A DNA stretch of 64,000 nt, taken from the sequence record NC_129898.1. One strand, 5' to 3'. Position numbers and translations under genes: made by a program. This document shows, piece by piece, positions 5,732 through 49,132 of this stretch. Below the pieces are notes generated by a model. The model made no database searches and had not been told where the DNA came from. It saw only the letters and a list, made by a program, of their open reading frames with translations. Source of the stretch: a phage. Every line of letters starts with the position of its first letter. The stretch's first letter is position 1.

Positions 5732-8155
5732 ATGAGTATGTGGTCTTTCGATCTGGAGGCCTCTGGCTTGCTGGAAGATCCAGATCTTTATTATCACTGC
5801 GGTTTGTTTAAAGAGCTGAATAAGAACCGTTTTATGCTGTTCCTTCCTCTAAATGACCGCACACACTACTCGGAAGAGGATGTAGAGAAGGCTAAGAACT
5901 TTATTCTGGCAAAGAGAACTCTTTATAAAGATTTTGAGGTTCGCATAGCAGATTTTTCAGAGTTGGAAGGTTGGCTTACAGGCAACTCAGACTGGTCACC
6001 TACGGCTTTGAACTGTCATAACTGCTACAGCTATGACTTTATGCTGATGGAAAGATTATCCGGTGTTCATTTTGATATGTTCCGTGATCCTAAATGTATG
6101 GGGACTATTAACGACCACCAGGTTAATCTGTTTGATACGTTGGCGATGAGTCGAATCTTGTGGCCTGACCGCCCTTTGCCAAAAGGTTGTCCGGACGCAG
6201 TATTCAATCCAGTTACCAAGAAAATGCAGCCTGTTGGGCCTCATGGCCTTATGGCATGGGGCTATGCCCTTGGTAACCAGAAAGTTCAAATCGATGACTG
6301 GCGTGAGCTTCCGCTGTGGAAGTATGTGGATCGTGTGTTCGAGGACGTTATCATCCAGGAGTTGCTCTGGAAAGAGTTGGTAGCGGAATCAAAAGGTGTA
6401 TTCTACGGCAAATCTGACATGCAGAACTTTATGTATGACCCTGCCAAAGAGAAGCCTAAAGGATTCAAGAAGATTACCTGGAAGAATGCATTACGCCGAG
6501 GCATGCTGCAGCATTTCCTGATGGAGCTGCAGGCTCGACAGGGTGTGTATTTCGACATAGATGGGGCTATTGCTTTACGTGACCGCTGCGATGCGTGGAT
6601 GAAAGAGATCGCTGATCGTGTTGAACCACAACTTCCTTTAAAAGAGTTATCAATGTCTCAGCGGCCTAAGTTCCCTGAAAAGCCGTTTAACCAGGATGGG
6701 ACAATCTCCAATAATGGTTGGAAATGGTTAAAAGACAAGCTTGGCTATCCTGTGGATATGAGCGCTTTAGAGTTCAAAGCTCCTCCTAAGCGAGCATTTA
6801 CCTCCACAGGGGATGTCAGTAAAATGGGGATAAAATGGTGTGAAGAGATGGGCTGTAAAGACCCAGATAAGATGGCTGATTTCTTGAGAGGGTATATCAA
6901 AGGAACTTCTACACCACACCCTTTACCTAAAGAGCTAATGGATCAGGCAATAAGTGACCTACAGCAGAAGCGAATGCCTGACTGCAAGATACCTATGAAA
7001 ATCAGCAATCAGGACGACATCAAGCGATACCTGATCAGTGCTGGTTGGCTCCCAACAATGTGGAGAACTAAGGATGTAACTAAAGACAGCAAGAAGAAAG
7101 CTCTGCCTGATGCTGATGTTGATGCACGAGTATATGCATATATGGACGAGCTTTTAGAGTCAGAGTATTGTGACCTAATTATCAACTTCTGGAACAAAAC
7201 TGATGCTAAGTTTCAGACAACCGTGCACAAGTTCCGAAGCTTCCCTAACTCAGAAAGGATTAAAAAGGAAGTGTTTGGGAAGATACGTAGAAAAGCCAGA
7301 GCGCTTATTACTTCTCCGCAACTGAAAGATACGTTTGGACACCTATGTCCGAATCTTGAAAAGTTGAACGGAGAGATGGCTAAAGATATCGTCTTGTGGT
7401 TATCCTTGCGAAACCGTAGATCGGTCCTTGATCCAATCAAGGAGGATAAGGTTGATACTGGTCTTCTTAATCATCCACGTTTGAAGATTGACCATAAGCT
7501 TCCTGCTAAAAGTTCTGGATTAACAAACACTTCCAGACAGAAACACAGCATTTGTGCAAACATGCCTAAACCATCTCCTAAAGTGGTTATGGGTAAAGAG
7601 ATGCGTAGTCTGTGGGGTGTTCCTCCAGGATACTTTGAGATCGGTATTGACGGGTCCAACTTAGAGCAGCTTATCGGGGCTTGGGGTGCCTTTGAGTTCG
7701 ACAACGGCCTGTACTATGATGTTGTAAGTAACGGGGACGCGCACCAAAACAATGCTGAGGCATATACAAAGGTAGCAGGTAGGGAGGTGTCTCGTAACGA
7801 TGGTAAACCTATCACGTATGGGGTTATGTATGGGGCACAAAAAGATAAAGTTGCAGATATGCTGGATATCTCTCCAGAGCTGGGGCAGAGAGTAATCGAT
7901 GCTCTCTGGGATGCCAACCCAGGCCTTAAGGGGCGTAAAGAGGATCTGGAGAAATTCTGGGAAGCAACAGGTAAGAAATTTATCTACTCTTTTGACGGTC
8001 ATGCCATTTGGACCCGCTCTAAACACTCTTTGCTTAATGCATATCAGCAAAATGGCGGTGCATCGTTGTGCGACTTGGTCGGAATCCTCATGCACCACCA
8101 AATGGTGAAGCGTGGATGGTATGATGAGGGTGTTCGTCGTATTATTTATTACCAT
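5732..8155 (+). CDS. DNA polymerase, family A (T7-like), exon 1
   Basis: FDLEASGL exo motif; GIDGSNLEQL (motif A) and RNDGKPITYGVMYG (motif B) align to T7 gp5; frame stops just before expected motif C. Confidence 0.85.
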
Positions 8156-8483
8156 AAATAACATTGTGGCTTCGTGCAGTGATGCACGTCGAAAACCTCT
8201 TTAATTGACGGGAAGGCTAAGTTGACTTTTACACCTAAACATGGTAAAAGCTCAATATGCTAATCCGCAGCGAAGCATCCGAGAGGATGAACGTTCAGAG
8301 ACTATCGAAAGCATAGCTCCAACACAGTTTGGGGTGAAGAAGCGAGTAGAGTAGGCCAGCAAGTGCGGTCGAAATGAGAGGTGCCTTGGTAACAAGGCAG
8401 TGAGATAGTCCGATCCATACGGGAAACTGTATGGCTATGCACGTAATGGTGCGGGGTAGCTTAACGACCTACCTGAACTATTG
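8156..8483 (+). ncRNA. group I self-splicing intron (ORF-less) in DNA polymerase gene
   Basis: 328 nt break between YYH and DEYQ; exon ends in U, intron ends in G; UUGUGG guide can pair CCAU|AA; P7-like CAGAGACUA (8296-8304) and UAGUCC (8406-8411). Confidence 0.65.
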
Positions 8484-8837
8484 GATGAGTACCAACTTCA
8501 AGTCCCTGACACACCTAAGTATAAAACTGTATACACCTTCGACACAATTGAAGAGCTGGAAACATTTAAGTCCCAGCAGGAGGCTAAACTTCATGTGTTC
8601 GACGGTCATAAGTACAAAAAGGCACGCAAGGATGAAGAAGGAAACGAAGTAGTTGACAGTGATGGAAATACGGTATACGATCCTATCTTGAACGATGACG
8701 GAAAGCTTGAACTTATCTGGAGCCCTGTGGGCGAAATGGTGGTACATTGCTTCTGGCAAGCTTCTAAAATGATGGGCGTTCCGTTCCAGATCACAGGTGA
8801 ATACTTGTGTGGACGTAACTGGGGCGATTGTCACTAA
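8484..8837 (+). CDS. DNA polymerase, family A, exon 2
   Basis: Joining restores motif C as YYHDEYQLQV (T7 AWVHDEIQV); C-terminus NWGDCH resembles T7 PNWAICH. Confidence 0.7.
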   Translation, partial: DEYQLQVPDTPKYKTVYTFDTIEELETFKSQQEAKLHVFDGHKYKKARKDEEGNEVVDSDGNTVYDPILNDDGKLELIWSPVGEMVVHCFWQASKMMGVPFQITGEYLCGRNWGDCH

Positions 8838-27906: not shown

Positions 27907-28511
27907 TTCTCTTTTCCTACCATAAACGGCCCCGCCTGGCAAGTGGAATAATTAACGAGCCATCAATCCCGCACACTGTACAAATATACATGTAAAATAG
28001 TTATTGCATAACCTTTCATTGTGTGGTAGCGGTGCTATTTTTACCTGTTTTCTCTCCCAAAATTGCACGTAATGCAGCTATTGCACAAAATTTAACCTGA
28101 TGCACATCTTCAGTATACTGTCAACAATTAAAAACCCTTATAAGTCATACACTTACACAAACCAAAAAGCGCGTCCTACGTGAAAAATCGGGTGTAACTA
28201 TAGCCGACAGATCTCAGAATCCACGTACGATCACCATTCTATAGCCTGCAAAGTATTTATTCCAACCACAGAATAACGGAATAGTCAATACCTGTACAAA
28301 ATAATTATTCGTACAAACTGCATAACATAAACCTGCCCAGGTGTCAACATTTTTCGTAAACAGTTAGAAATTGTCACGATAGGTTACTATAATCAGAGAA
28401 ATATTTAGTCGTCTAATGTTTACTGTACATAACTATACTGACTGGAATCATTAGATGACTAAGAGAAAGATAAGAAATAGTTAACAATGTAATTGTTTTA
28501 CCTGTAACAAT

Positions 28512-28688
28512 AAGGCAACTATGCAAACGAATGGCATGGCGCGACGGAGTCGCGACATAATATAAAAGCAGTAACAATCACCCCCGTGATAGTTTGTCTG
28601 CAATCTATTAATCAGATCATAGTTGCCTTGTATTTAGTTAATCATGACATAACAAGCAAGGCAACTATAGATCTTCTAATAGTTGCCC
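28512..28688. repeat. paired inverted repeats AAGGCAACTAT / ATAGTTGCC
   Basis: AAGGCAACTAT at 28512 and 28658; reverse complement at 28619 and 28679; palindrome GCGAC-GGA-GTCGC at 28541. Confidence 0.6.
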
Positions 28689-28761
28689 TGCTTTTATATT
28701 ATGTCATAGAAACGCCCGAAGGGGTGACCTAGTCACCTGGCATAGCCAGCGAAATATTATT

Positions 28762-28821
28762 AACTTGTTAATTGTCAGCTTGTTGGCTGTTAGCTTGTCA
28801 ATTGTTAACTTGCTAATTGTT
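28762..28821. repeat. tandem 15-bp repeats (4 units)
   Basis: CTTGTTAATTGTCAG / CTTGTTGGCTGTTAG / CTTGTCAATTGTTAA / CTTGCTAATTGTTAA, contiguous. Confidence 0.65.
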
Positions 28822-30459
28822 AAACTCGGGAGCATAGCCCTCGTCTCAAGGGTGTTATCATGCAAACGAATGTCATGGCTTATCATCTATGCGTAAACTG
28901 TCAGGGTGTAGACTATTCAGGCGTAAACAGTCTATGCGGGAACAATCTATACGTGAACAGTGAAATATGAAATAATAACAGTCGTTATTGTATCGAAAGT
29001 GTATAAGGTGTCAGATTATGGCATATTGTGTGACATTGTGTCAGACAAGTTTTTCTCCTCTTTGTCAAGTGCTGCATGGAAAATTTACAATCTGGTATGG
29101 TAGCATTTTTGCGGCCCTGTTTACATTCAGGAGTGTATGTATAACCCTTGTTGTGTGGGCGTTTAGACGTCTGGACGGTCAGAAGTCTGCAGGTTAATAT
29201 CTAATCTATTGGTCGCTAACTATATCCCCCACAAATAATAAGAAATGCAATTGTTATATGCGTAAACAGTAACTCATGTTATCAATCCCTGTATGTATCG
29301 CCAGTGGTGCGCATAATGGGTATTATGTTAAATTGCCCGTAATGATAACAGTTCTCACAATGATAGGTATTCTCATTCACCCCCACAAAATAGATTGCAA
29401 ATGTTGTGCCACTGTGTGAACGGCCTCGCCTATTAATTTGCCTCACTGCTCCGATATTTGAGAATTGTTATAAGAATGAGAAGTATTCCCATTTCGTCCG
29501 CCTGGCAGCGCTCCTGTAGGTCAGGTCAAAATCGTGGTAGAACTGGACCCCTTCAGATATTTCTAGCTGACTCTTCAGGCCTGTGTGGGAAAAGCCAACC
29601 TCTCCGGCGGGGCAGGGGGGTCAATTAAAAAATTTACGTAGGGTACGAAGCGCTCTTCAGGTAAGGCATGTATTAGAGGATGAAACCCTCTTCAGGTGAT
29701 GATATTTGTGGGTGTGATATTTGCTGGAAAGCCAGATATGACGGGACTACCGGCGGGGATGGGGTAGTATAGGCAGGGAAAATGTGGAGAATGTGGTTGG
29801 TAAATTTATCAGGCAGGTAGAGTATGGGATATGTTACAGGTATGTTAAATATGGAGGTAGGATATTTGTAAGATTTGTGTGTAAAATCAAAGACTTAAGT
29901 GGTGTTGTGGTATTTTCTATAAATAATTCAAGTTTAATAGGTAATATTTGTCTCTATCCACTTTGTGGGGTAAACAGATTCTAATTGAATTGGTTTACAA
30001 GTGTATATAAAGTATACAAATTAAAGATATAAGAAACCCCCCTCCCCCTTCGGCTACCATTCACCTTTTCCTCTGACTGGTACTTAAACACTTATTCAGA
30101 CTCTTCAGGTTATCACCCATATACTATATGGCAGTGACTGGTGTCCTCTGGCCCCTCTTTCGTCACCCGTCCGCTTCGCCATGCTAATGCCATAGCTAAA
30201 GGTTCGGTTGTTCACCCTGTTCACTCAGGTGTATCTCCATACCCCTTCAAACCGAAGAGAACAGAAAACCCGAATTACTCGGTAAAAGAAAAGAGAAGAA
30301 CTTAATTTTATCAGGATAGGCAAGAATGTCAAGGCATGACTGCTCACTAAACAAGCAAACAGTCATGTGTGGGAGGTAAGTGATTGTGGTGGTAGGAAAT
30401 TTAGTTGAAAGATGTGTTATAGGTGCTTCCAGCACTTTAGCCGGGCAGCTAATTGTGTG

Positions 30460-30675
30460 TCAGTCCAGCGGTTCATCCTCTACTTCACTGAAATCGATGT
30501 TCAGGGTCTCTTCCCAACCATCGATCTCAGCACAAGAGTGGAGTTCTTTAGGGTTTACTCCCAAAGCCTCAGCAACAGCGTCTATATTTAACACCTCTGG
30601 CAGGTATGATTCATCAAATTCAAGGTAAATCAGGCCACGAGTGTTGTCAGCTCCACCAAATATTTCTATCTTCAT
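30460..30675 (-). CDS. hypothetical small protein (MKIEI family)
   Basis: Starts MKIEIFGG; last gene of - arm. Confidence 0.45.
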   Translation of the reverse strand: MKIEIFGGADNTRGLIYLEFDESYLPEVLNIDAVAEALGVNPKELHSCAEIDGWEETLNIDFSEVEDEPLD

Positions 30676-39275: not shown

Positions 39276-39746
39276 CTACTTAGACAACAGTTCAAAATAG
39301 TGCAAAATTAACAGAAGTTGAATTACGCCTAGCACAACGGCAAGTATGTTAATCTTAGAATCAAAAAACTTCTTAACTTTTACTCTAAAAGGTTCCTTAA
39401 TGTCCTTTACGATCCTATCTATAGATGACCTCATATCTCTGATTACCATCCTGAACATTAAAGACGGATGCTCCCCCATCTCTGTAACGGAATCGAAAAC
39501 ATACTCTCTTCGGTCATAAGGGCCGCCAGCTCTGCGTATTAACCTCTCCACAGAGACCTCGAACGTCACACCTGTAACGTAATCATCTATAACAAGTCGT
39601 GACGGGTCTTTACCTTTACTATCAAGAGGTATCAAAGTTATCTTTCCAGATTTTGTTAAAATTTCTCCTTTTTCAAGCAAGGTGTACCAATGCTCTCTAC
39701 CAAGATTGTTGAGGCACGTTTTTACATATTTAACAAACATCGTCAC
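39276..39746 (-). CDS. hypothetical protein with C-terminal TM anchor
   Basis: C-terminal ILAVVLGVIQLLLILHYF. Confidence 0.45.
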   Translation of the reverse strand: MTMFVKYVKTCLNNLGREHWYTLLEKGEILTKSGKITLIPLDSKGKDPSRLVIDDYVTGVTFEVSVERLIRRAGGPYDRREYVFDSVTEMGEHPSLMFRMVIRDMRSSIDRIVKDIKEPFRVKVKKFFDSKINILAVVLGVIQLLLILHYFELLSK

Positions 39747-42136: not shown

Positions 42137-42670
42137 TCATTTCAAGTCTGCCTCTGGTGGTGCCAACCACATAAATGGCGGCAAGTCTAGACGGTTTTTC
42201 TTGTCCCATACAAAATATGCATATGCCTGCCCATCCGTTCTACCATTGGATTGGAATGACGGACGCTTAGATATTGTGATCACAGTGGTAGGTGCATTAT
42301 CAAGCCACCATTCAAATCTGGCCTTGCTTTCCAGAAAATTAAGACGCAAAAGCATAATAACTACATCGGCATCTTTCAACGCCTTGTCTACAAACTCACG
42401 AGCCAAGCTGTACGGTGGGTTGGTGATAATACAGTCAACATGGTTGTATTCTGTATTCAGATAGTCAACACCTTCTTGGATTTCTCCCCATGCAGATCCT
42501 AACGGCATACGGGAGTAGAACACACCTGAGGCACTATTCCTGCAAGGCTCTAAGTAAGTCCAGTCTTCTGGGAACGGAATAAGGTCATACAGCCCTTCTG
42601 CACACCACTCCGGTGTCACATACTCATCGTAAGCGTTACGTTGTTCATCAGGTTTTCTAGCACAAGTCAT
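42137..42670 (-). CDS. DNA N6-adenine methyltransferase (phage Dam-like, small)
   Basis: YVTPEW N-terminal motif and DCIITNPPY catalytic motif. Confidence 0.8.
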   Translation of the reverse strand: MTCARKPDEQRNAYDEYVTPEWCAEGLYDLIPFPEDWTYLEPCRNSASGVFYSRMPLGSAWGEIQEGVDYLNTEYNHVDCIITNPPYSLAREFVDKALKDADVVIMLLRLNFLESKARFEWWLDNAPTTVITISKRPSFQSNGRTDGQAYAYFVWDKKNRLDLPPFMWLAPPEADLK

Positions 42671-42721
42671 GCAAATCTCCAGATCATAAAAGCCCTCCGA
42701 AGAGGGCTTTAGGATTAATGT

Positions 42722-43771
42722 TTAAGCTTCTTCGACAATTCCTGCGCCCAGGATTTTTTCATTGAGCTCTTTTGCTGTTTTAATAATATTGTCCACCAGA
42801 CGCTTACGAGTCTTATCTTTCACCTGAACTTCTTCTCCGCCGTTCAGGGTGGTTTTCAATTGGGACAAAATGTCCTGAAGCTCTACCACAGAGAATCGCT
42901 GCAGATCTTCCGAGGTAATCTCACCCAGTGCAATCTTAACGGTCTCACCACTCTCCATCTGCAGATTCAGGAACACAGTGTGAACATCACCTTTCATACC
43001 ATTTTCTTTTGCAGACTCAACAGCATGAACCAGCTCGTCCAAAGATGTGCATTGGTGAATCTCTGGCAGGCCTGCTTCGCCTAGCACACCTTCTTCATCA
43101 CTTTTTGCCAAAAGCTTTTTCGGTTTCTGTCCATTCTGAATGCGCTGAATGTTTTCATCGTCCAGAATAATAGCACCAGTTCGAGATGCCAGCTCTTCTC
43201 CATCTAACCACACTTCGCCGCCAGCTGTGATGGATGCGATCTCATCTTCTGTTAGCACTCCACCGTAGTATTTTTCGATCAGGCGTTCAAAACGTTTCTT
43301 CCAGTAGTTGACCTGGGTATTCATGTTCACACCGTTACCATAGGTGCCACCTTGATAATAGTGGAACATAAATTCTGTGTCCGGAGCCACAGTTCGTTCT
43401 TTGCAACCCATCCATAAGATTGTTCCTGCTGAACAGCACATCCCTTCAGCGTGTACAACAACGCTTGCCTGAGACTCGCGGAATGCCTGCAAATACGCCA
43501 TAGCAATGTGAACGCAACCACCAGGGCTGTTAATGATTACACGGATACTTTCTTCTGGCTGAGCCATACGAATCGTCTGTAGACGAGACATATGATCTTG
43601 CAGGTCGTCCAAATCGTCAATATAAAGAACGTGGTCAACAACAGGTGTTGGGTAGCTGTATGTTTCCATAATACCACCCGGCATACCAAACATTTTGTTA
43701 CTCATAGGTTCGAAACCGTTCTGTTTTTCTTTCATGCCGTGTACCATGGTGCTGCGAGGTGTTAAATTCAT
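42722..43771 (-). CDS. ClpP/S14-family serine peptidase-like protein with C-terminal extension
   Basis: INSPGGCV and EGMCCSAGTILW resemble ClpP-fold motifs around the catalytic Ser. Confidence 0.55.
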   Translation of the reverse strand: MNLTPRSTMVHGMKEKQNGFEPMSNKMFGMPGGIMETYSYPTPVVDHVLYIDDLDDLQDHMSRLQTIRMAQPEESIRVIINSPGGCVHIAMAYLQAFRESQASVVVHAEGMCCSAGTILWMGCKERTVAPDTEFMFHYYQGGTYGNGVNMNTQVNYWKKRFERLIEKYYGGVLTEDEIASITAGGEVWLDGEELASRTGAIILDDENIQRIQNGQKPKKLLAKSDEEGVLGEAGLPEIHQCTSLDELVHAVESAKENGMKGDVHTVFLNLQMESGETVKIALGEITSEDLQRFSVVELQDILSQLKTTLNGGEEVQVKDKTRKRLVDNIIKTAKELNEKILGAGIVEEA

Positions 43772-43831
43772 GAGAAATCCTTAATATTGGAAGTTGAAAG
43801 CTATTTATTTAAACCTGATTCACATTTACCT

Positions 43832-44191
43832 TTATTTAGCAATCACTATAGAATACTTACGATTGTCAGAAGCATCACAGCTCAATGATTGCCAGTCTAC
43901 CACATACCACGTATCATTGTCAACAATTACTTTATCGCCTGTTCTGTAGCAGGTGCTGCTTTCAATAATCCTAGACTCGATAAAGAATCTGTGTCGGCGC
44001 TCACGTAGCAACGCTAAGTTGATTATATTACCACCACTGTCCTTGGTCCACACATTCTTGGATCCTTTATTTGCCAAAATTGTCTCGCCGTTATATACAA
44101 ACAGGCAGTATATTTTATTCAGTCTCTCTTGTATTGTAGCCATACTGTGTCCTTCTCCTTGTTTTGTCCAGTAATAATATCTAAAGCTCAC
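43832..44191 (-). CDS. hypothetical protein
   Basis: ORF; start possibly internal (MATIQERL). Confidence 0.45.
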   Translation of the reverse strand: MSFRYYYWTKQGEGHSMATIQERLNKIYCLFVYNGETILANKGSKNVWTKDSGGNIINLALLRERRHRFFIESRIIESSTCYRTGDKVIVDNDTWYVVDWQSLSCDASDNRKYSIVIAK

Positions 44192-44246
44192 CTGTTTGTC
44201 AACAACTGTTTTAGATATTTAAGGGTGGAATAACCACCCTTCTGTA

Positions 44247-45035
44247 TTACTCGGAAACAGGAGTCCAAATATGATTTGCACGATCCTCAATAAGATTGAG
44301 TGCAATCTGACGGCCTAACCCGGAACGAACGACATCGTCTGGACTATCAAAGCTAATCATTCCAACCTCAGGATCTGGATGACGCGTAAAGAAATCTGTC
44401 ACCCATGCAAGGCCAGATTTACCAGGGATGTCACGTTGGCTGTTATCGCCCATAATTACAAGGGTGGCCTGATCAGAGATCCTTGTGATAATTGACAACA
44501 TTTCTTCAGGATTGGTTTGCTGTGCTTCATCAATAAGGACAAAGCATCGTTCATCAAAACTACGACCACGAATGCTTTCAACCTCACAAATCTCGATACG
44601 GCTGTTCTGACCGTCTCCAAGCATTGCTGCAAAAGCACCTTTGCCAACACGACGACAAATCGTGTCCATCATGCTTCTAAGATAGGGCCACAGTTTCTGC
44701 ATTGCATTTCCAGGTTTAAATCCTGAAGTCTTTCCTGTCTGAACGTAAGGGCGTGCAACAATGATCTTATCAATCTCGTTCTTGCGCAGAAGATCCCCTG
44801 CATATGCAGATGCCATGAATGTCTTACCGGATCCAAACACACCGTTTACAATGATAATCTTACGCGACCCTAGATAATCAAGATACTTTTGCTGCTTTTT
44901 ATTCATTGGTCGGAGAGCTGGAGCGGTGTGCTCTCGTTCGTCAGCAAATTTTTCAGCAGCCTTACGCAGGCGATCAGATTTGCGAGCCTCTCTAGCTTCA
45001 TCACGCATGCGTTTTGTTTCTTTAGCTCGACCCAT
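44247..45035 (-). CDS. phoH: PhoH-like ATPase
   Basis: Walker A GVFGSGKTF, Walker B LIDEAQ, PhoH-like layout. Confidence 0.8.
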   Translation of the reverse strand: MGRAKETKRMRDEAREARKSDRLRKAAEKFADEREHTAPALRPMNKKQQKYLDYLGSRKIIIVNGVFGSGKTFMASAYAGDLLRKNEIDKIIVARPYVQTGKTSGFKPGNAMQKLWPYLRSMMDTICRRVGKGAFAAMLGDGQNSRIEICEVESIRGRSFDERCFVLIDEAQQTNPEEMLSIITRISDQATLVIMGDNSQRDIPGKSGLAWVTDFFTRHPDPEVGMISFDSPDDVVRSGLGRQIALNLIEDRANHIWTPVSE

Positions 45036-45073: not shown

Positions 45074-45424
45074 TTACTGCAATAGTTTTTCAATAGCCGC
45101 TTCCATGCTGCTTGCAACAGCCTGAACTCGGATATTCATCTCTTCTTGGTGGATCAGCTCCTTAAGCTCTTTAATGGTAAATTCTTTAGAGAAACCTTCT
45201 ACCATAATCTTGTGTAAGGCTTCTTGCGTGTCTACCTGCAAGAACTTTTCCAGTTTGTTGGCAGAGGCTTCTAAATCAGCCCGAATACGAGGGTCATCTG
45301 TGCGATTCAGCATCAGGCGTAAGCCATCAAGATTAGTAGAAATAGCGTCTGCATGTTGAGTAACTAATCGTGGCAAAATGAGATCTACAAACTTATTAGC
45401 CAAATCGATACGTTCTTGTGTCAC
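45074..45424 (-). CDS. hypothetical protein (116 aa)
   Basis: GTG start overlapping upstream stop (GTGA). Confidence 0.45.
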   Translation of the reverse strand: MTQERIDLANKFVDLILPRLVTQHADAISTNLDGLRLMLNRTDDPRIRADLEASANKLEKFLQVDTQEALHKIMVEGFSKEFTIKELKELIHQEEMNIRVQAVASSMEAAIEKLLQ

Positions 45425-45534
45425 TGTTGCACCCCCTCTTCATCCTCATGATGTTTCTTTTCACGCTTGTGTTTTTTCTTAAGCTCAAGCGCAATCTCTT
45501 TTTTGTACGCCTTCTTCAAGGCCTTTTTAGCCAT
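45421..45534 (-). CDS. hypothetical small basic protein (37 aa)
   Basis: GAGGAGG RBS before ATG 45534; Lys-rich; below ORF-track cutoff. Confidence 0.35.
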   Translation of the reverse strand: MAKKALKKAYKKEIALELKKKHKREKKHHEDEEGVQQ

Positions 45535-45596
45535 TTGGCACCTCCTCTGCTTTCATTACGCTAATTATAACCAACTTAACAAGACTTTGTCAACAA

Positions 45597-46246: not shown

Positions 46247-47209
46247 TCAGCAACCACAACTTCCGTAGTGCTTAACCCGTTCTATAACCTCCGCTTGCTT
46301 ACCTTTATTGTAAGGACGGGAGTTTGGACTGGACAGATACCCGGATACACGTCTAATCACACTGATCGTTCCCTCTTCATGGTTTCCACACTCTGGGCAT
46401 ACAAAGCCTTTAGCTGTTGCACTGAACTCACCAGAGAATCCACACTTAAGACATTTATCCACAGGCTGGTTAATACCAAAATACATAATGTGTTTATATC
46501 CGAAATCAACAAGAGCTTCCAAAGCATCTAAGTTGTTTTTCAGATTTGGTGTCTCTATGTACCCAATGTTGCCACCAGAGGAGATCATAGCAAAACCTTC
46601 CTCATACTTCCACTTATCAAAAGGCGAGCTATTGATCCATACTGGCTGATGGAAACTGTTGGTGAGGTATTCATGCTCGTGCTTCAACACTTCTGGGTAT
46701 TCACGATCCAGACAGGTTGCAGCTTTATAGCATAAACTCTCAGAAGGTGTGCCGTACAAGCTAAATGCTAGTCCACTTTCCTTCTTGTATCGCTCACAAG
46801 CATCTTTCATGTGCTGAAGGATTCCAAGAGCTAAAGCCTTGTCACCCTCTCTGCCCAAAATCTGACAGGTTTCATACACACCAATATACCCAATACTGAT
46901 GGAAGCGTACCCGTCATAGAAGAGTTTATCGATACTCTCTTCAGGATCCAGGCTAGCAAGAGCTCCTTCACACCACATGATAGGGTTATGCCCTGCCTTT
47001 GTTCCTTTTAGACGGTTAACTCTTACAAGGTGAGCCTCATATGCCAAATCCAAATATTCGTCAAGAACTGCAAAGAAATCAACACCTTCCGTTTTAGCTT
47101 TTGCCGCAATCATTGGTAGGTTAAGGCTAACAACACCCAAGTTGAATCTGCCAAGGTATTTCTCCTCGCCTGTTACAGGGTCGCTATATTTCGATAAGAA
47201 ACTTCTACA
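46247..47209 (-). CDS. nrdD: anaerobic ribonucleoside-triphosphate reductase, exon 2
   Basis: Glycyl-radical motif RRVSGYL; zinc ribbon CLKCG...CPECG; begins CRSFL. Confidence 0.8.
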   Translation of the reverse strand, partial: CRSFLSKYSDPVTGEEKYLGRFNLGVVSLNLPMIAAKAKTEGVDFFAVLDEYLDLAYEAHLVRVNRLKGTKAGHNPIMWCEGALASLDPEESIDKLFYDGYASISIGYIGVYETCQILGREGDKALALGILQHMKDACERYKKESGLAFSLYGTPSESLCYKAATCLDREYPEVLKHEHEYLTNSFHQPVWINSSPFDKWKYEEGFAMISSGGNIGYIETPNLKNNLDALEALVDFGYKHIMYFGINQPVDKCLKCGFSGEFSATAKGFVCPECGNHEEGTISVIRRVSGYLSSPNSRPYNKGKQAEVIERVKHYGSCGC

Positions 47210-47971
47210 CATTATGTTCAAGGTGGTTCGCAAGGCCACCCCCGCACCATTACGTGCTGCTGCATGTCCCCATGCAGATCAGACTATATCTTCACACTTA
47301 GTGTGTCTACCATTTCGAGTGTCATCAGCTTACACCCTACACCGCTACATTCATCACGGTTAGTCGTTAGGCATTTCGTAACAGAACTCGTAATCATAGT
47401 TATTAGGTGCACCACGTTTCAGGATAGCAGATATTCTTTTTCTATCTATTCCTAAAACATCAGCACAACATCTCAGACTCTTAAAGTGAATAACCACACC
47501 AGTTAATTTGTGGGTGGCTTTCACCCCGTGACATCTTGTGTAAAAAGCATAACAGTTGTTGTCGTATCCTTCTTGAGTATTGTCTGGGCAAGCTCCCCAC
47601 TCAAGGTTGTATACGCTGTTATCTTTCCTGTTGTCACCTTTGTGCTTAACATATGGTAAATTGTCTGGATTTGGTAAAAACGCTTCAGCAACAAGTCTGT
47701 GAACCCTTAGGCAAACAGTCTTTTTGTTCTTGCGTATCCTGACAAGACGGTAACCTGTGTTTATCTCTTCCCACGAATGAATAATTCTTTCATTTTCGTA
47801 TCGGGTGCAATAAACATTGCCCATCTCGTCAATTTCATAACCTTCAAAATCACGAATTTGTTTTCTCATTTCAGGACTCCTCTTAGTCAGGAGTTCTGTT
47901 ACGTTTAGCACGGGATTGTCCGTTCTGGAGTTTCCCCGTTTAGATAGATTTTACATGAGCAGTTATAGTTT
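47210..47971 (-). mobile_element. group I intron in nrdD carrying an HNH homing endonuclease gene
   Basis: 762 nt break between ...TSMG and CRSFL...; exon ends in U, intron ends in G; HNH ORF in a different frame; P7-like GACUAA and UAGUCUGA downstream of the ORF. Confidence 0.65.
47360..47911 (-). CDS. intron-encoded HNH homing endonuclease
   Basis: HRLVAEAF...VKHKGDNRKDN...NLEW HNH core; C-terminal helix-turn-helix-like IDRKRISAILKRG; AAGAGGAG RBS. Confidence 0.8.
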   Translation of the reverse strand: MLNVTELLTKRSPEMRKQIRDFEGYEIDEMGNVYCTRYENERIIHSWEEINTGYRLVRIRKNKKTVCLRVHRLVAEAFLPNPDNLPYVKHKGDNRKDNSVYNLEWGACPDNTQEGYDNNCYAFYTRCHGVKATHKLTGVVIHFKSLRCCADVLGIDRKRISAILKRGAPNNYDYEFCYEMPND

Positions 47972-49132
47972 ACCCATGCTTGTTACTTTGCCGTCTGTTG
48001 AACCTGTCACTTTACGATTTAGTGGAACAGAAACAAAGTCAGGATAAATCCGCTCTGCAGAGCATTCTAGAGCCAATCGTTTCAAATCGTAGTTAGGATC
48101 CCCAGGGTTCATGTTGACACCCTCCTCTAAGAAGAACAGCACTTTAGGAAACACAGGGGTGATCCGTTCTTCACCAAGACCCATTTTGTGGACTTTCAAG
48201 TAGTTTTTGGTAATCATTCTACCAAAGACCGAGGTATCCAGTCCTAAACTTAATGTGATGAATGGAGTTTGCCCGTTGACAGAAGTTAACGTATTGATTT
48301 GGTAGAGCAAAGTTTGCATACTATCAAACACGTCTTTATCTGTCATTTGCATTGCAACAGTCTCAGCATCTGGCAACCAATGCTCCTGACAAAATTTAAG
48401 GTTCTTCTCATAGGTTGCTTCAGCATACTGTGCCAGATAATGATCAATATGGCTCATGGTTTGACCACCATATTGAGCACTAGCTACTGCACTAGAGATT
48501 TGGCTAAGGATTGTTGTTGCAACCCCTATTGACTTCGGCTTACTGACATGGGCGTTGCCAATGTTGAATCCGTTTTCCAGCATATCCGGATAATTTACCA
48601 AACAACAGTTTGTTAACGGACTGATCAGGTAGTCAAGATCATGCACATGGATGAAGCCTTTGTTGTGCTCTTCGGAGACACGGTCTGGCAGGATCTGTGT
48701 TGATGCAAGATGTTTGCTAAGGATGCCTGCAAGCAGGTCACGATGAGTGTGTACATGATTAGTAGGCTTATTTGCGTTTTCTTTTGTAAATTCATCACAA
48801 GTACGATCCAAGAAGCCACTAATATCTGCAAGCAGTTTTCCACCTGCCTCTCTGTTATTATCTCTTGTCTGTCTATACTGGATGTATTCTCTGGCTGCAC
48901 ATTTTAAACCCATATCCATAAGAGCATCTTCAACAAGGATATGGATATTTTTTACAGAGATCGTGCACTGGTCGGTTGGCAGATTGTTGGCAACAACTTC
49001 ATTAACCGCACAGGCAATCCGGTAAGCTTCTTCTTCAGTATGTCCAGACTCAAGTAAGGCGGACTCTGCCGCCTTGATCACCTTAATTCCGTTATAAAAC
49101 TCTTCTCTACCGTCCCGTTTTACAACTTTCAC
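47972..49132 (-). CDS. nrdD: anaerobic ribonucleoside-triphosphate reductase, exon 1
   Basis: ATP-cone-like N-terminus MKVVKRDGREEF; frame stops 3 codons after inferred splice point. Confidence 0.8.

What the first reader, a model, noticed from the sequence alone, without database searches (positions are those of the whole stretch)
42722..45035. ClpP-like peptidase and PhoH-like ATPase in the nucleotide-metabolism arm
ClpP-fold peptidases in phages usually sit with capsid genes as prohead proteases. Here one with a long C-terminal extension lies among early genes next to PhoH and a Dam-like methyltransferase, so it may not be a morphogenetic protease. Structural genes are outside the window, so this cannot be settled here.
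Basis: inference. Interest (0 to 1): 0.35.

Follow-up and report, generated by a model that had tools for sequence, protein, structure and literature searches.

The report
Non-capsid ClpP-like peptidase beside PhoH

Summary
There is a 349-aa ClpP-fold peptidase at 42722-43771(-) and a 262-aa PhoH-family ATPase at 44247-45035(-). A 103-aa ORF lies between them and an NPPY adenine methyltransferase follows.

The window is a Vequintavirus, 98% identical to phage FV3. The head module lies outside the window. In close relatives it carries its own XkdF/S78-type prohead protease and a scaffold between portal and capsid genes, so the ClpP-like gene is very probably not the morphogenetic protease.

The ClpP-like gene has its own sigma-70-type promoter and intrinsic terminator. 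It belongs to a clade of stand-alone ClpP-related peptidases found in the replication or nucleotide-metabolism arms of many large virulent phages. Several of these, such as KVP40-like phages and ICP1, have a separate prohead protease.

- Catalytic Ser and His are invariant.
- The ClpX/ClpA docking cleft and the N-terminal gate are not conserved, so the label "ATP-dependent" is unsupported.
- The C-terminal domain is a lineage-restricted orphan.
- PhoH sits directly upstream in at least seven phage lineages. This is suggestive, but shared ancestry could explain it.

The genes are already annotated (BASEL: "ClpP-like protease" plus a separate "prohead protease"). Interest is low to moderate.

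The parts
45564..45593 (-). Consensus sigma-70-type promoter (TTGACA, 18 nt, TATAAT; 12 of 12) heading the unit that ends with PhoH
   Evidence: It corresponds to promoter P118 predicted in rV5 (PMC3606486 Table S4). This is a prediction only.
45421..45534 (-). 37-aa highly basic small ORF, the first gene of the PhoH unit
   Evidence: Read from the sequence. It matches rV5 gp118 / FV3_00110 (37 aa).
45074..45424 (-). 116-aa ORF of unknown function (PHROG 7650)
   Evidence: No Pfam hit.
44247..45035 (-). PhoH-family P-loop ATPase, 262 aa, with Walker A and B intact
   Evidence: Pfam PF02562 3.6e-47 and PHROG 170 3.8e-75. NCBIfam PhoH equivalog scores 137.9 bits, below its cutoff of 380.
44221..44241 (-). 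GC-rich hairpin (AAGGGTGG-TTAT-TCCACCCTT) just after the PhoH stop, without a T run; a possible weak terminator or RNA end
   Evidence: Read from the sequence. The terminator scan did not call it.
44174..44202 (-). Sigma-70-type promoter (TTGACA, 17 nt, TATTAT; 11 of 12) heading the ClpP-like unit
   Evidence: It is the same element as rV5 P121. This is a prediction only.
43832..44143 (-). 103-aa ORF of unknown function (PHROG 5456), co-transcribed with the peptidase
   Evidence: Shine-Dalgarno AAGGAG upstream of the ATG at 44143. Corresponds to FV3_00113 / rV5 gp121. No Pfam or NCBIfam hit.
43156..43771 (-). N-terminal part of the peptidase. Residues 1-43 are a disordered leader with the conserved motif FG-MPG...YSYP. 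Residues about 44-205 are the ClpP-fold catalytic domain (Ser114, His137, Glu186; oxyanion Gly85).
42722..43155 (-). End of the ClpP-fold domain and the C-terminal extension of the peptidase (from about residue 206 to 349, plus the stop codon). It comprises the last helix of the ClpP fold, a variable acidic linker, and a conserved small domain (about residues 262-343: two strands and three helices; F293, E297 and R322 invariant).
   Evidence: No Pfam hit and no PDB fold match (best E 0.52). The domain profile finds only 8 proteins among 1.84 billion representatives.
42686..42707 (-). Intrinsic terminator GCCCTC-TTCG-GAGGGC-TTTTAT directly after the peptidase stop codon
   Evidence: Read from the sequence. 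Identical to rV5 t122 (-14.9 kcal/mol in PMC3606486 Table S4).
42137..42670 (-). 177-aa putative N6-adenine DNA methyltransferase (NPPY motif), the next gene downstream
   Evidence: PHROG 799 5.1e-67. Pfam Dam and EcoRI_methylase hits are below cutoff. BASEL annotates it as 'putative N6 adenine methyltransferase'.

Best explanation
The interval holds two adjacent transcription units, each with a host-type promoter, in the replication and nucleotide-metabolism arm of a Vequintavirus (rV5/FV3-like myovirus). The first unit ends with a PhoH-family ATPase. The second is a bicistronic unit with its own promoter and terminator, encoding a 103-aa protein and a 349-aa ClpP-fold serine peptidase.

The peptidase is not the capsid-maturation enzyme. 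That job belongs to an XkdF/S78-type protease encoded next to the scaffold in the head module. This protein is instead a member of a clade of stand-alone ClpP-related peptidases that many large virulent phages carry among their DNA-metabolism genes.

Shown here: a ClpP fold; invariant catalytic Ser114 and His137 with an acidic or amide third residue (Glu186); a handle region of the same length as in ClpP.

Inferred: it assembles into ClpP-like rings and is catalytically active inside the infected cell before or alongside head assembly. It lacks the hydrophobic cleft that binds the IGF/IGL loops of ClpX/ClpA, and it lacks the N-terminal gating loops. It therefore most likely works without a host AAA+ unfoldase, as a peptidase acting on peptides or unfolded or specifically recruited proteins. 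Its lineage-specific C-terminal domain would act as the recruiting or regulating part. Its substrates (host proteins, phage early proteins or defence proteins) are unknown.
For: Identity of the genome: 98.1% over 3.7 kb to FV3, with 113 records covering at least 80% of the query.

A separate prohead protease exists. FV3_00062 matches Pfam Peptidase_S78_2 at 1.1e-17 and lies between the portal and the 325-aa scaffold, decoration and lambda-E-type capsid genes. The curated DrSchubert annotation reads 'portal, prohead protease, head scaffold, decoration, major capsid' and lists 'ClpP-like protease' elsewhere. The same split is reported for SSBI34/CR9 (PMC8879037).

Transcription anatomy: promoter at 44202-44174 and terminator at 42707-42686, matching rV5 P121 and t122. 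The T4-late-like motif was reported only upstream of rV5 late genes 27-66.

Virion content: the peptidase was not among the 19 virion proteins of rV5.

Homologues lie in DNA-metabolism arms of phages with their own head protease. These include ICP1 gp211 (ICP1 gp125 is the late capsid-operon protease, while the gp176-gp211 subset peaks at 12 min), KVP40-like ValKK3 (frd, ClpP-like, uvsX), Otagovirus, Pakpunavirus, Sugarlandvirus and N4-like VBP47.

Catalysis and fold.

Docking cleft: the E. coli ClpP pocket residues L23, L48, F49, A52, Y60, Y62, F82, I90, M92, F112 and L114 (list from bioRxiv 10.1101/820209) correspond to P, deletion, deletion, M, R, I, E, H, E, T and A. Most of these replacements are invariant in the family.

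Canonical ClpP models score far below cutoff: TIGR00493 gives 34 bits against 308.6.
Against: - The nearest curated families by score are ClpP-related head-maturation proteases (NCBIfam NF045542 at 65.6 bits and several PHROG 'head maturation protease' families). The clade therefore probably descends from head proteases, and a residual role in assembly is not excluded.
- No expression data, enzymology or mutant exists for any Vequintavirus. The promoters and the terminator are predictions.
- Absence from virions is weak evidence, because prohead proteases are usually lost from mature heads.
- The head module was read in relatives, not in the genome this window comes from.
- Oligomeric state and independence from an unfoldase are inferred from an alignment at about 20% identity, although the key columns are anchored without gaps to the NSPGG, Ser and His motifs.
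- In most Seunavirus-type and Erwinia-phage relatives the third triad residue is Gln.
Confidence: 0.72

Rival explanations
1. It is a head-maturation protease after all, either a second one or the real one. On this view a ClpP-related protease fused to a scaffold-like or capsid-targeting C-terminal domain is encoded away from the head module.
For: The best curated non-self matches are head-maturation families: NF045542 'head maturation protease, ClpP-related' at 4.8e-18, and PHROG 1684, 94, 2976 and 133 at 1e-24 to 1e-16. Protease-scaffold fusions with C-terminal extensions are common in phages (established knowledge: lambda gpC/Nu3). The ICP1 homologue lies in a gene set that peaks at 12 min, the transition to late expression. 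One late-like motif with a single mismatch lies 250 nt upstream, inside the 103-aa ORF.
Against: The head module has its own XkdF-type protease directly upstream of the scaffold. All head-protease models score below their cutoffs (65.6 against 120). The stand-alone family PHROG 1827 scores higher (2e-38). Homologues coexist with the prohead protease gp21 that T4-type phages are known to carry (established knowledge, not checked in the ValKK3 record; homologue context) and with ICP1 gp125. The C-terminal domain is a small two-strand, three-helix fold rather than a coiled-coil scaffold. The number of late-motif matches in the window is not above chance. The rV5 capsid protein keeps its N-terminus, so no delta domain needs removing.
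Confidence: 0.1
2. The PhoH-like ATPase and the ClpP-like peptidase work together as a phage-encoded two-component machine, with the ATPase feeding or regulating the peptidase. This would explain their conserved adjacency.
For: PhoH lies directly upstream on the same strand in at least seven lineages, although the peptidases share only 25-35% identity. The lineages are Vequintavirinae; ICP1; Vibrio 495E54-1 and F90; Otagovirus phiPsa397 (8-nt overlap); Limnohabitans DC31 (26-nt overlap); Barbavirus (11-nt gap); and metagenomic relatives. In 201 phage records both genes fall within about 1.1 kb.
Against: PhoH is a helicase-like P-loop ATPase, not an AAA+ unfoldase (established knowledge; NCBIfam also hits the RNA helicase PhoH2). 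Here the two genes have separate promoters. Insertions of 1-4 genes between them are tolerated. The peptidase occurs without a neighbouring PhoH in Pakpunavirus, Sugarlandvirus, KVP40-like, N4-like and RAS14 phages. Most of the roughly 3,500 phage records with PhoH have no ClpP-like gene beside it. The synteny extends to the RNR genes and a methyltransferase, as expected from simple inheritance of a module.
Confidence: 0.08
3. It is what the database label says: an alternative proteolytic core that docks to host ClpX/ClpA (an 'ATP-dependent Clp protease proteolytic subunit') and redirects host unfoldases.
For: ClpP fold, Pfam CLP_protease above cutoff, Ser and His conserved, handle region of ClpP length.
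Against: The IGF/IGL docking cleft is replaced by invariant polar or charged residues (Y60R, F82E, I90H, M92E, F112T). Helix B is shortened and the N-terminal gating loops are absent (with the residue list). The ClpP equivalog models score about 10% of their cutoffs. A Keio screen of the V5-like phage LL12 found only LPS genes to be required (PMC7229145), which is weak evidence.
Confidence: 0.05
4. It interferes with host ClpP by mixing into or capping its rings, and so protects phage proteins from ClpXP/ClpAP.
For: The fold and handle region are ClpP-like while the unfoldase-docking surface is lost. Phage inhibitors of host proteases are known (T4 PinA against Lon, from established knowledge).
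Against: Strict conservation of the catalytic Ser, the His and the oxyanion Gly in all 23 sequences compared argues that catalysis is selected for. At only about 20% identity to E. coli ClpP, co-assembly is doubtful.
Confidence: 0.05

Closest known systems
rV5 gp122 / FV3_00114 / BASEL 'ClpP-like protease' (PHROG 5410) of Vequintavirinae and relatives
   Same: The protein is 99.7% identical to FV3_00114, with the same length, the same neighbours and the same promoter and terminator as rV5 gp121-gp122. It is the same gene.
   Different: Nothing of substance differs. No function has been shown for any member.
Stand-alone phage ClpP-like peptidases (PHROG 1827: ICP1 gp211, Otagovirus, Pakpunavirus, Sugarlandvirus, KVP40-like, N4-like, Barbavirus)
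   Same: The same catalytic domain at 25-35% identity, with invariant GG, Ser and His and an acidic third residue. All lie among DNA or nucleotide-metabolism genes, often just after PhoH.
   Different: Most are about 180-240 aa and lack the C-terminal domain. ICP1 and the Vibrio 495E54-1/F90 phages have extensions of similar length, but the ICP1 extension, the only one compared, shows no detectable similarity (hhalign E 0.38).
Cellular ClpP (MEROPS S14, TIGR00493)
   Same: Fold, Ser-His catalytic pair, oxyanion glycine and handle length are shared. Foldseek gives E about 3e-9.
   Different: About 20% identity. The third triad residue is Glu or Gln instead of Asp. There is no IGF/IGL docking cleft and no N-terminal gate. 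About 137 aa are added at the C-terminus. Scores are far below the equivalog cutoffs.
ClpP-related head-maturation proteases (NCBIfam NF045542; lambda gpC-type and protease-capsid fusions)
   Same: These are the closest curated families by score and probably the evolutionary source of the clade.
   Different: They lie in head modules next to portal, scaffold or capsid genes (for example Gordonia gene 4). This gene does not, scores below their cutoffs, and the genome has another head protease.
PhoH / YbeZ-type ATPases of phages (PF02562, PHROG 170)
   Same: Full-length PhoH domain with intact Walker motifs. PhoH-family matches are common in the phage collection (3,757 records matched the combined PhoH plus ClpP-like query, most rows through the PhoH part).
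   Different: It is not an ortholog of E. coli PhoH by the NCBIfam cutoff (137.9 against 380 bits). Function in phages is unknown.

Membership tests
Canonical ClpP (S14, partner of ClpX/ClpA) | ClpP (crotonase-like) fold | tested here: met
   In the AlphaFold2 model, residues 44-212 have pLDDT about 85-92. The top 50 Foldseek hits are all ClpP, with E 3e-9 to 2e-8 and target TM 0.6-0.68.
Canonical ClpP (S14, partner of ClpX/ClpA) | Catalytic Ser and His plus oxyanion glycine | tested here: met
   Ser114, His137 and Gly85 align with Ser97, His122 and Gly68 of E. coli ClpP. They are invariant in 23 phage sequences.
Canonical ClpP (S14, partner of ClpX/ClpA) | Catalytic Asp171 completing the triad | tested here: not met
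   The aligned residue is Glu186 here. It is Gln in most Seunavirus-type and Erwinia-phage relatives, and Asp or Glu in ICP1, Otagovirus, KVP40-like and others.
Canonical ClpP (S14, partner of ClpX/ClpA) | Hydrophobic cleft that binds the IGF/IGL loops of the unfoldase (L23, L48, F49, A52, Y60, Y62, F82, I90, M92, F112, L114, L189) | tested here: not met
   The aligned residues are P, gap, gap, M, R, I, E, H, E, T, A and (L). R77, E99, H107, E109 and T127 are invariant in the family (residue list from bioRxiv 10.1101/820209).
Canonical ClpP (S14, partner of ClpX/ClpA) | N-terminal axial gating loops (residues 1-18) and helix A | tested here: not met
   There is no alignable counterpart. Residues 1-42 have pLDDT below 50 and carry a different conserved motif.
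Canonical ClpP (S14, partner of ClpX/ClpA) | Score above the curated ClpP equivalog cutoff | tested here: not met
   TIGR00493 scores 34.2 bits against 308.6, and the PRK models score 20-41 bits against 228-361. The broad Pfam CLP_protease domain model is passed (51.1 against 20.2).
Canonical ClpP (S14, partner of ClpX/ClpA) | Double-heptamer chamber | not testable with these tools
   Only a monomer model could be made. The handle region has the same length as in ClpP (49 residues from the His to the third triad position).
Phage prohead (head-maturation) protease | Encoded in the head module next to portal, scaffold or capsid genes | tested here: not met
   The gene lies about 35 kb from the head module. 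Its neighbours are PhoH, RNR genes and a methyltransferase.
Phage prohead (head-maturation) protease | It is the only candidate protease available for head maturation | tested here: not met
   An XkdF/S78_2 protease (Pfam 1.1e-17) lies between portal and scaffold in FV3. It is annotated as prohead protease in DrSchubert and CR9.
Phage prohead (head-maturation) protease | Late expression together with capsid genes | tested here: inconclusive
   The gene has its own sigma-70-type promoter and terminator. The published late motif is found upstream of rV5 genes 27-66 only. ICP1's homologue groups with nucleotide-metabolism genes that peak at 12 min, whereas the capsid operon peaks at 16 min. No transcriptome of a Vequintavirus was found.
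Phage prohead (head-maturation) protease | Score above the cutoff of the ClpP-related head-maturation model NF045542 | tested here: not met
   65.6 bits against a cutoff of 120.
Stand-alone phage ClpP-like peptidase (PHROG 5410 / 1827) | Full-length match to the family profile and the same genomic setting | tested here: met
   PHROG 5410 at 1.1e-154 over residues 24-345, and PHROG 1827 at 2.2e-38.
PhoH family (PF02562) | PhoH domain above the Pfam cutoff with Walker A and B | tested here: met
   160.9 bits against a cutoff of 27, covering profile positions 2-201 of 205. GSGKT and DEAQ are present in the sequence.
PhoH family (PF02562) | Orthology to E. coli PhoH (NCBIfam equivalog NF007827) | tested here: not met
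   137.9 bits against a cutoff of 380.

The most novel reading that the evidence does not exclude
PhoH-like ATPase, ClpP-like peptidase and often an adenine methyltransferase form a conserved functional cassette of large virulent phages. In this reading the peptidase is a gate-less, unfoldase-independent 'deregulated ClpP' used for host takeover or counter-defence. It could also be the protease activity that the protease-sensing CBASS system (EcCdnG) detects in Vequintavirinae, where recognition differs from that of T4 gp21.
Probability: 0.1. Interest if true: 0.6.

Novelty: already known. Interest (0 to 1): 0.27.

Why it matters
The practical value is in annotation.

- The label 'ATP-dependent Clp protease proteolytic subunit', carried by hundreds of phage genomes, is not supported for this clade. 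The unfoldase-docking cleft and the gate are missing.
- The RefSeq label 'DNA methyltransferase' on the real prohead protease of FV3 is wrong.

Biologically, a catalytically intact ClpP-fold peptidase is kept in the replication arm of many unrelated-looking virulent phages, often right behind PhoH. It is a widespread gene of unknown function, like PhoH itself. If its substrates were found, they could reveal a proteolytic step in host takeover or in evasion of defence. They could also bear on which phage protease triggers protease-sensing CBASS in Vequintavirinae. None of this is established here.

Tried and rejected
- **SAP/HeH-like reading of the C-terminal domain.** By eye the motif F-x-V-x-E-L-x-x-I-L ... 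R-x-x-L-I looked like a SAP/HeH-type nucleic-acid-binding motif. Pfam gave only single-member, non-significant hits (HeH 0.083, SAP 0.15), and Foldseek against the PDB found nothing (best E 0.52). The idea was dropped.
- **Homology between the ICP1 gp211 and rV5-type C-terminal extensions.** hhalign gave E 0.38, so homology is not claimed.
- **Other occurrences of the C-terminal domain.** A profile search of 1.84 billion representative proteins found 8 hits. All the strong ones have the same architecture.
- **IMG/VR scan with a profile of diverse stand-alone ClpP-likes.** A chimeric PhoH+ClpP tblastn query and hand inspection of contexts were used instead.
- **Literature.** Searches for any study of phage-encoded ClpP, ICP1 gp211 or a Vequintavirus transcriptome found nothing on function.
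- **PhoH 'LGF'-like motif.** I considered whether a PhoH motif like LGF could mimic an IGF loop. The phage PhoH has TSGFKPG there, and the idea rests on memory only, so it was not pursued.
- **rV5 virion proteomics.** The peptidase is absent from the table, but this has little weight for a protease.
Full report
**What is there.** The finding's limits coincide with two real genes on the minus strand.

- ORF 42722..43771 encodes 349 aa. Pfam CLP_protease matches residues 59-168 at 1.9e-13, above its cutoff. PHROG 5410 'ATP-dependent protease' matches at 1.1e-154 over the full length.
- ORF 44247..45035 encodes 262 aa with a complete PhoH domain (3.6e-47) and visible Walker A and B motifs.
- Between them lies a 103-aa ORF (43832..44143, PHROG 5456, unknown function).
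- Downstream lies a 177-aa NPPY methyltransferase.
- Upstream lie nrdG, a split nrdD, glutaredoxin and nrdB.

So the description 'ClpP-like peptidase with a long C-terminal extension next to PhoH in the nucleotide-metabolism arm' is correct.

**Which genome.** The region is 98.1% identical to Escherichia phage FV3 and 95-98% identical to more than a hundred other Vequintavirus genomes (rV5, the BASEL phages and others). The peptidase is 99.7% identical to FV3_00114 and corresponds to rV5 gp122. PhoH corresponds to rV5 gp120. By the position of this gene, the window is the reverse complement of roughly FV3 70.8-134.8 kb.

**Is it the prohead protease?** The full FV3 annotation shows terminase, portal (FV3_00063), a 190-aa gene (FV3_00062), a 325-aa gene (FV3_00061), the decoration protein and a lambda-E-type major capsid protein.

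- FV3_00062 is labelled 'DNA methyltransferase' in RefSeq. It matches Pfam Peptidase_S78_2 (XkdF phage serine protease) at 1.1e-17, well above cutoff, and PHROG head-maturation-protease families.
- In the curated BASEL genome DrSchubert the same genes are annotated 'prohead protease' and 'head scaffold protein'. The gene studied here is listed separately as 'ClpP-like protease'.
- A paper on Salmonella phage SSBI34 likewise lists a 191-aa 'putative prohead protease' next to the portal and, elsewhere, an 'ATP-dependent Clp endopeptidase' (PMC8879037).
- In rV5 virions the capsid protein was found with 83% coverage, including a peptide starting at residue 5. It is therefore not trimmed. The ClpP-like protein was not among the 19 proteins detected, though this is weak evidence for a protease.

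**Transcription anatomy.**

- A perfect TTGACA-18-TATAAT promoter at 45593-45564 precedes a 37-aa ORF, a 116-aa ORF and PhoH.
- A GC-rich hairpin without a T run follows the PhoH stop codon.
- A TTGACA-17-TATTAT promoter at 44202-44174 precedes the 103-aa ORF and the peptidase.
- The hairpin GCCCTC-TTCG-GAGGGC-TTTTAT at 42707-42686 follows the peptidase stop codon.

These are the elements P118, P121 and t122 predicted in rV5. The rV5 authors found a T4-late-like motif only upstream of the structural genes 27-66 (PMC3606486). That motif has no exact copy in the window, and one-mismatch copies are not more frequent than chance. All of this is prediction, and I found no Vequintavirus transcriptome.

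**The wider family.** A tblastn search of 50,697 phage records found 1,081 with a match. Apart from ClpP-related head-maturation proteases in small temperate phages (Gordonia, lambda-like and others), the best matches are stand-alone genes in large virulent phages. Their contexts are as follows.

| Phage or group | Context of the ClpP-like gene |
|---|---|
| ICP1 gp211 | nrdA, nrdB ... PhoH, two small ORFs, ClpP-like |
| Vibrio 495E54-1 and F90 | nrdA/nrdB (only the small subunit falls in the F90 stretch read) ... PhoH, one small ORF, ClpP-like |
| Otagovirus phiPsa397 | PhoH overlapping the ClpP-like gene by 8 nt |
| Limnohabitans DC31 | unannotated PhoH (tblastn 4.5e-33) overlapping it by 26 nt |
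| Barbavirus | PhoH, 11-nt gap, Clp protease, adenine methylase |
| Two metagenomic relatives | PhoH 2-3 kb upstream, with insertions between |
| Pakpunavirus HJ01 | no PhoH in the stretch read |
| Sugarlandvirus | dNMP kinase, ClpP-like, holin |
| KVP40-like ValKK3 | frd, ClpP-like, uvsX |
| N4-like VBP47 | no PhoH nearby |
| Jumbo phage RAS14 | no PhoH nearby |

T4-type phages have the prohead protease gp21 (established knowledge). In ICP1 the capsid operon, with its predicted protease gp125, is late (16 min). [quoted passage not shown] So this clade is consistently outside head modules and coexists with other head proteases.

**What the protein looks like.**

- AlphaFold2 with 18 homologues gives a confident ClpP fold for residues 44-212. 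Residues 1-42 are disordered, there is a low-confidence linker, and residues about 262-343 form a small two-strand, three-helix domain (modelled again on its own).
- Foldseek places the N-terminal domain with cellular ClpP (E about 3e-9).
- In alignments of 18 close and 5 distant phage homologues with E. coli ClpP (sequence verified against PDB 1TYF), Ser114, His137 and the oxyanion Gly85 are invariant. The third triad position is Glu here and Gln, Asp or Glu elsewhere. The spacing between the His and that position is the same as in ClpP.
- The residues that form the pocket for the ClpA/ClpX IGL/IGF loops (list from bioRxiv 10.1101/820209) are replaced by R, E, H, E, T and A. Most of these are invariant. 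Two pocket residues fall in a deletion, and the N-terminal gating loops have no counterpart.
- Canonical ClpP equivalog models score about a tenth of their cutoffs. The highest curated score is for ClpP-related head-maturation proteases, also below cutoff.

I therefore read the protein as a catalytically competent ClpP-fold peptidase that descends from the phage protease radiation. It probably forms rings but is unlikely to dock to host unfoldases. The ring assembly and the independence from unfoldases are inferences.

**The C-terminal domain.** It is conserved within the rV5, Seunavirus and Erwinia-phage group (F293, E297 and R322 invariant). It has no Pfam match and no PDB fold match. A profile search of 1.84 billion representative proteins found only eight hits, and all the strong ones have the same architecture. 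The extension of ICP1 gp211, of similar length, shows no detectable similarity. The function of the domain is unknown. A recruiting or regulatory role is a guess.

**PhoH and the adjacency.** PhoH is an ordinary phage PhoH-family ATPase, below the cutoff for orthology to E. coli PhoH. A chimeric PhoH+ClpP query found 201 records in which both lie within about 1.1 kb on one strand, about 118 of them Vequintavirus. In all, 3,757 records matched either half. The order PhoH then ClpP-like recurs in at least seven lineages. In three of them the genes overlap or nearly abut, which invites the idea of a functional pair. Several points count against this:

- the two genes have separate promoters here;
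- insertions between them are tolerated;
- five lineages lack the adjacency;
- the synteny extends to the RNR genes and a methyltransferase, as expected from inheritance of a whole module;
- PhoH is not an unfoldase-type ATPase.

I rate this reading at about 0.08.

**Comparison with what is known, and verdict.** The genes, their order and even the promoter and terminator were described for rV5 in 2013. The split between 'prohead protease' and 'ClpP-like protease' is already in curated annotations. No paper in the library addresses the function of a phage stand-alone ClpP-like peptidase. A 2026 preprint shows that a CBASS system sensing protease activity defends against Vequintavirinae, with a specificity different from that for T4 gp21. 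It does not identify the protease. This is a lead only.

What this analysis adds is modest:

- the 'ATP-dependent' label is unsupported;
- the C-terminal domain is a lineage-restricted orphan;
- the PhoH synteny is recurrent across lineages.

Noticed in passing
window 8146-8433 (+), with ORFs 5732-8161 (+) and 8481-8837 (+): A group I intron (Rfam RF00028, 75.6 bits, E 2e-17) starts at the 3' end of the 809-aa DNA polymerase ORF. It is followed by a 118-aa ORF that FV3 also annotates as 'DNA polymerase', so the polymerase gene appears to be intron-split.
   Followed up: partly
window 46247-49132 (-): The anaerobic ribonucleotide reductase gene nrdD is in two ORFs (47963-49132 and 46247-47239). 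A 183-aa ORF (47360-47911) lies between them; FV3 annotates its 177-aa counterpart there (FV3_00107) as an HNH homing endonuclease.
   Followed up: no
window about 28200-30500: A stretch of about 2.3 kb corresponds by coordinate mapping to the CDS-free region of FV3 and rV5 (ORFs in the window itself were not listed there). The two gene arms converge there and GC skew changes sign. It holds many short direct and inverted repeats, for example an 18-nt perfect inverted repeat at 28554-28571 / 28688-28705. The rV5 paper calls the region 'non-coding'.
   Followed up: partly
L002 6404-6976 (-) = FV3_00062 (outside the window): The RefSeq product name 'DNA methyltransferase' appears to be a mis-annotation. 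The protein matches Pfam Peptidase_S78_2 (XkdF) at 1.1e-17 and lies between portal and scaffold, so it is the likely prohead protease.
   Followed up: yes
L017 2977-5383; L014 614-6094; L015 3525-7068; window 42137-45035: An adenine methyltransferase accompanies the PhoH and ClpP-like pair in several lineages: Barbavirus (PhoH, Clp protease, DNA adenine methylase), two metagenomic relatives, and this window.
   Followed up: partly
window 45421-45534 (-): A 37-aa, very lysine-rich ORF (MAKKALKKAYKKEIALELKKKHKREKKHHEDEEGVQQ) lies directly behind a perfect sigma-70 consensus promoter and overlaps the start of the next gene. It is conserved as rV5 gp118.
   Followed up: no
window 39276-39746 (-): The 156-aa ORF in this 'early' arm corresponds by position to FV3_00125, annotated 'virion structural protein; similar to rV5 possible structural protein'. 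It is probably rV5 gp133, which the rV5 paper reports as one of the predominant virion proteins, but that gene-number match was not checked. The arm would then not be free of virion components.
   Followed up: no
literature, not a coordinate: A protease-sensing CBASS system (EcCdnG) defends against Vequintavirinae Bas48-59. Loop mutations that abolish sensing of T4 gp21 do not affect defence against Bas51. Which of the two Vequintavirus proteases is sensed was not determined (bioRxiv 10.64898/2026.03.04.709575).
   Followed up: no
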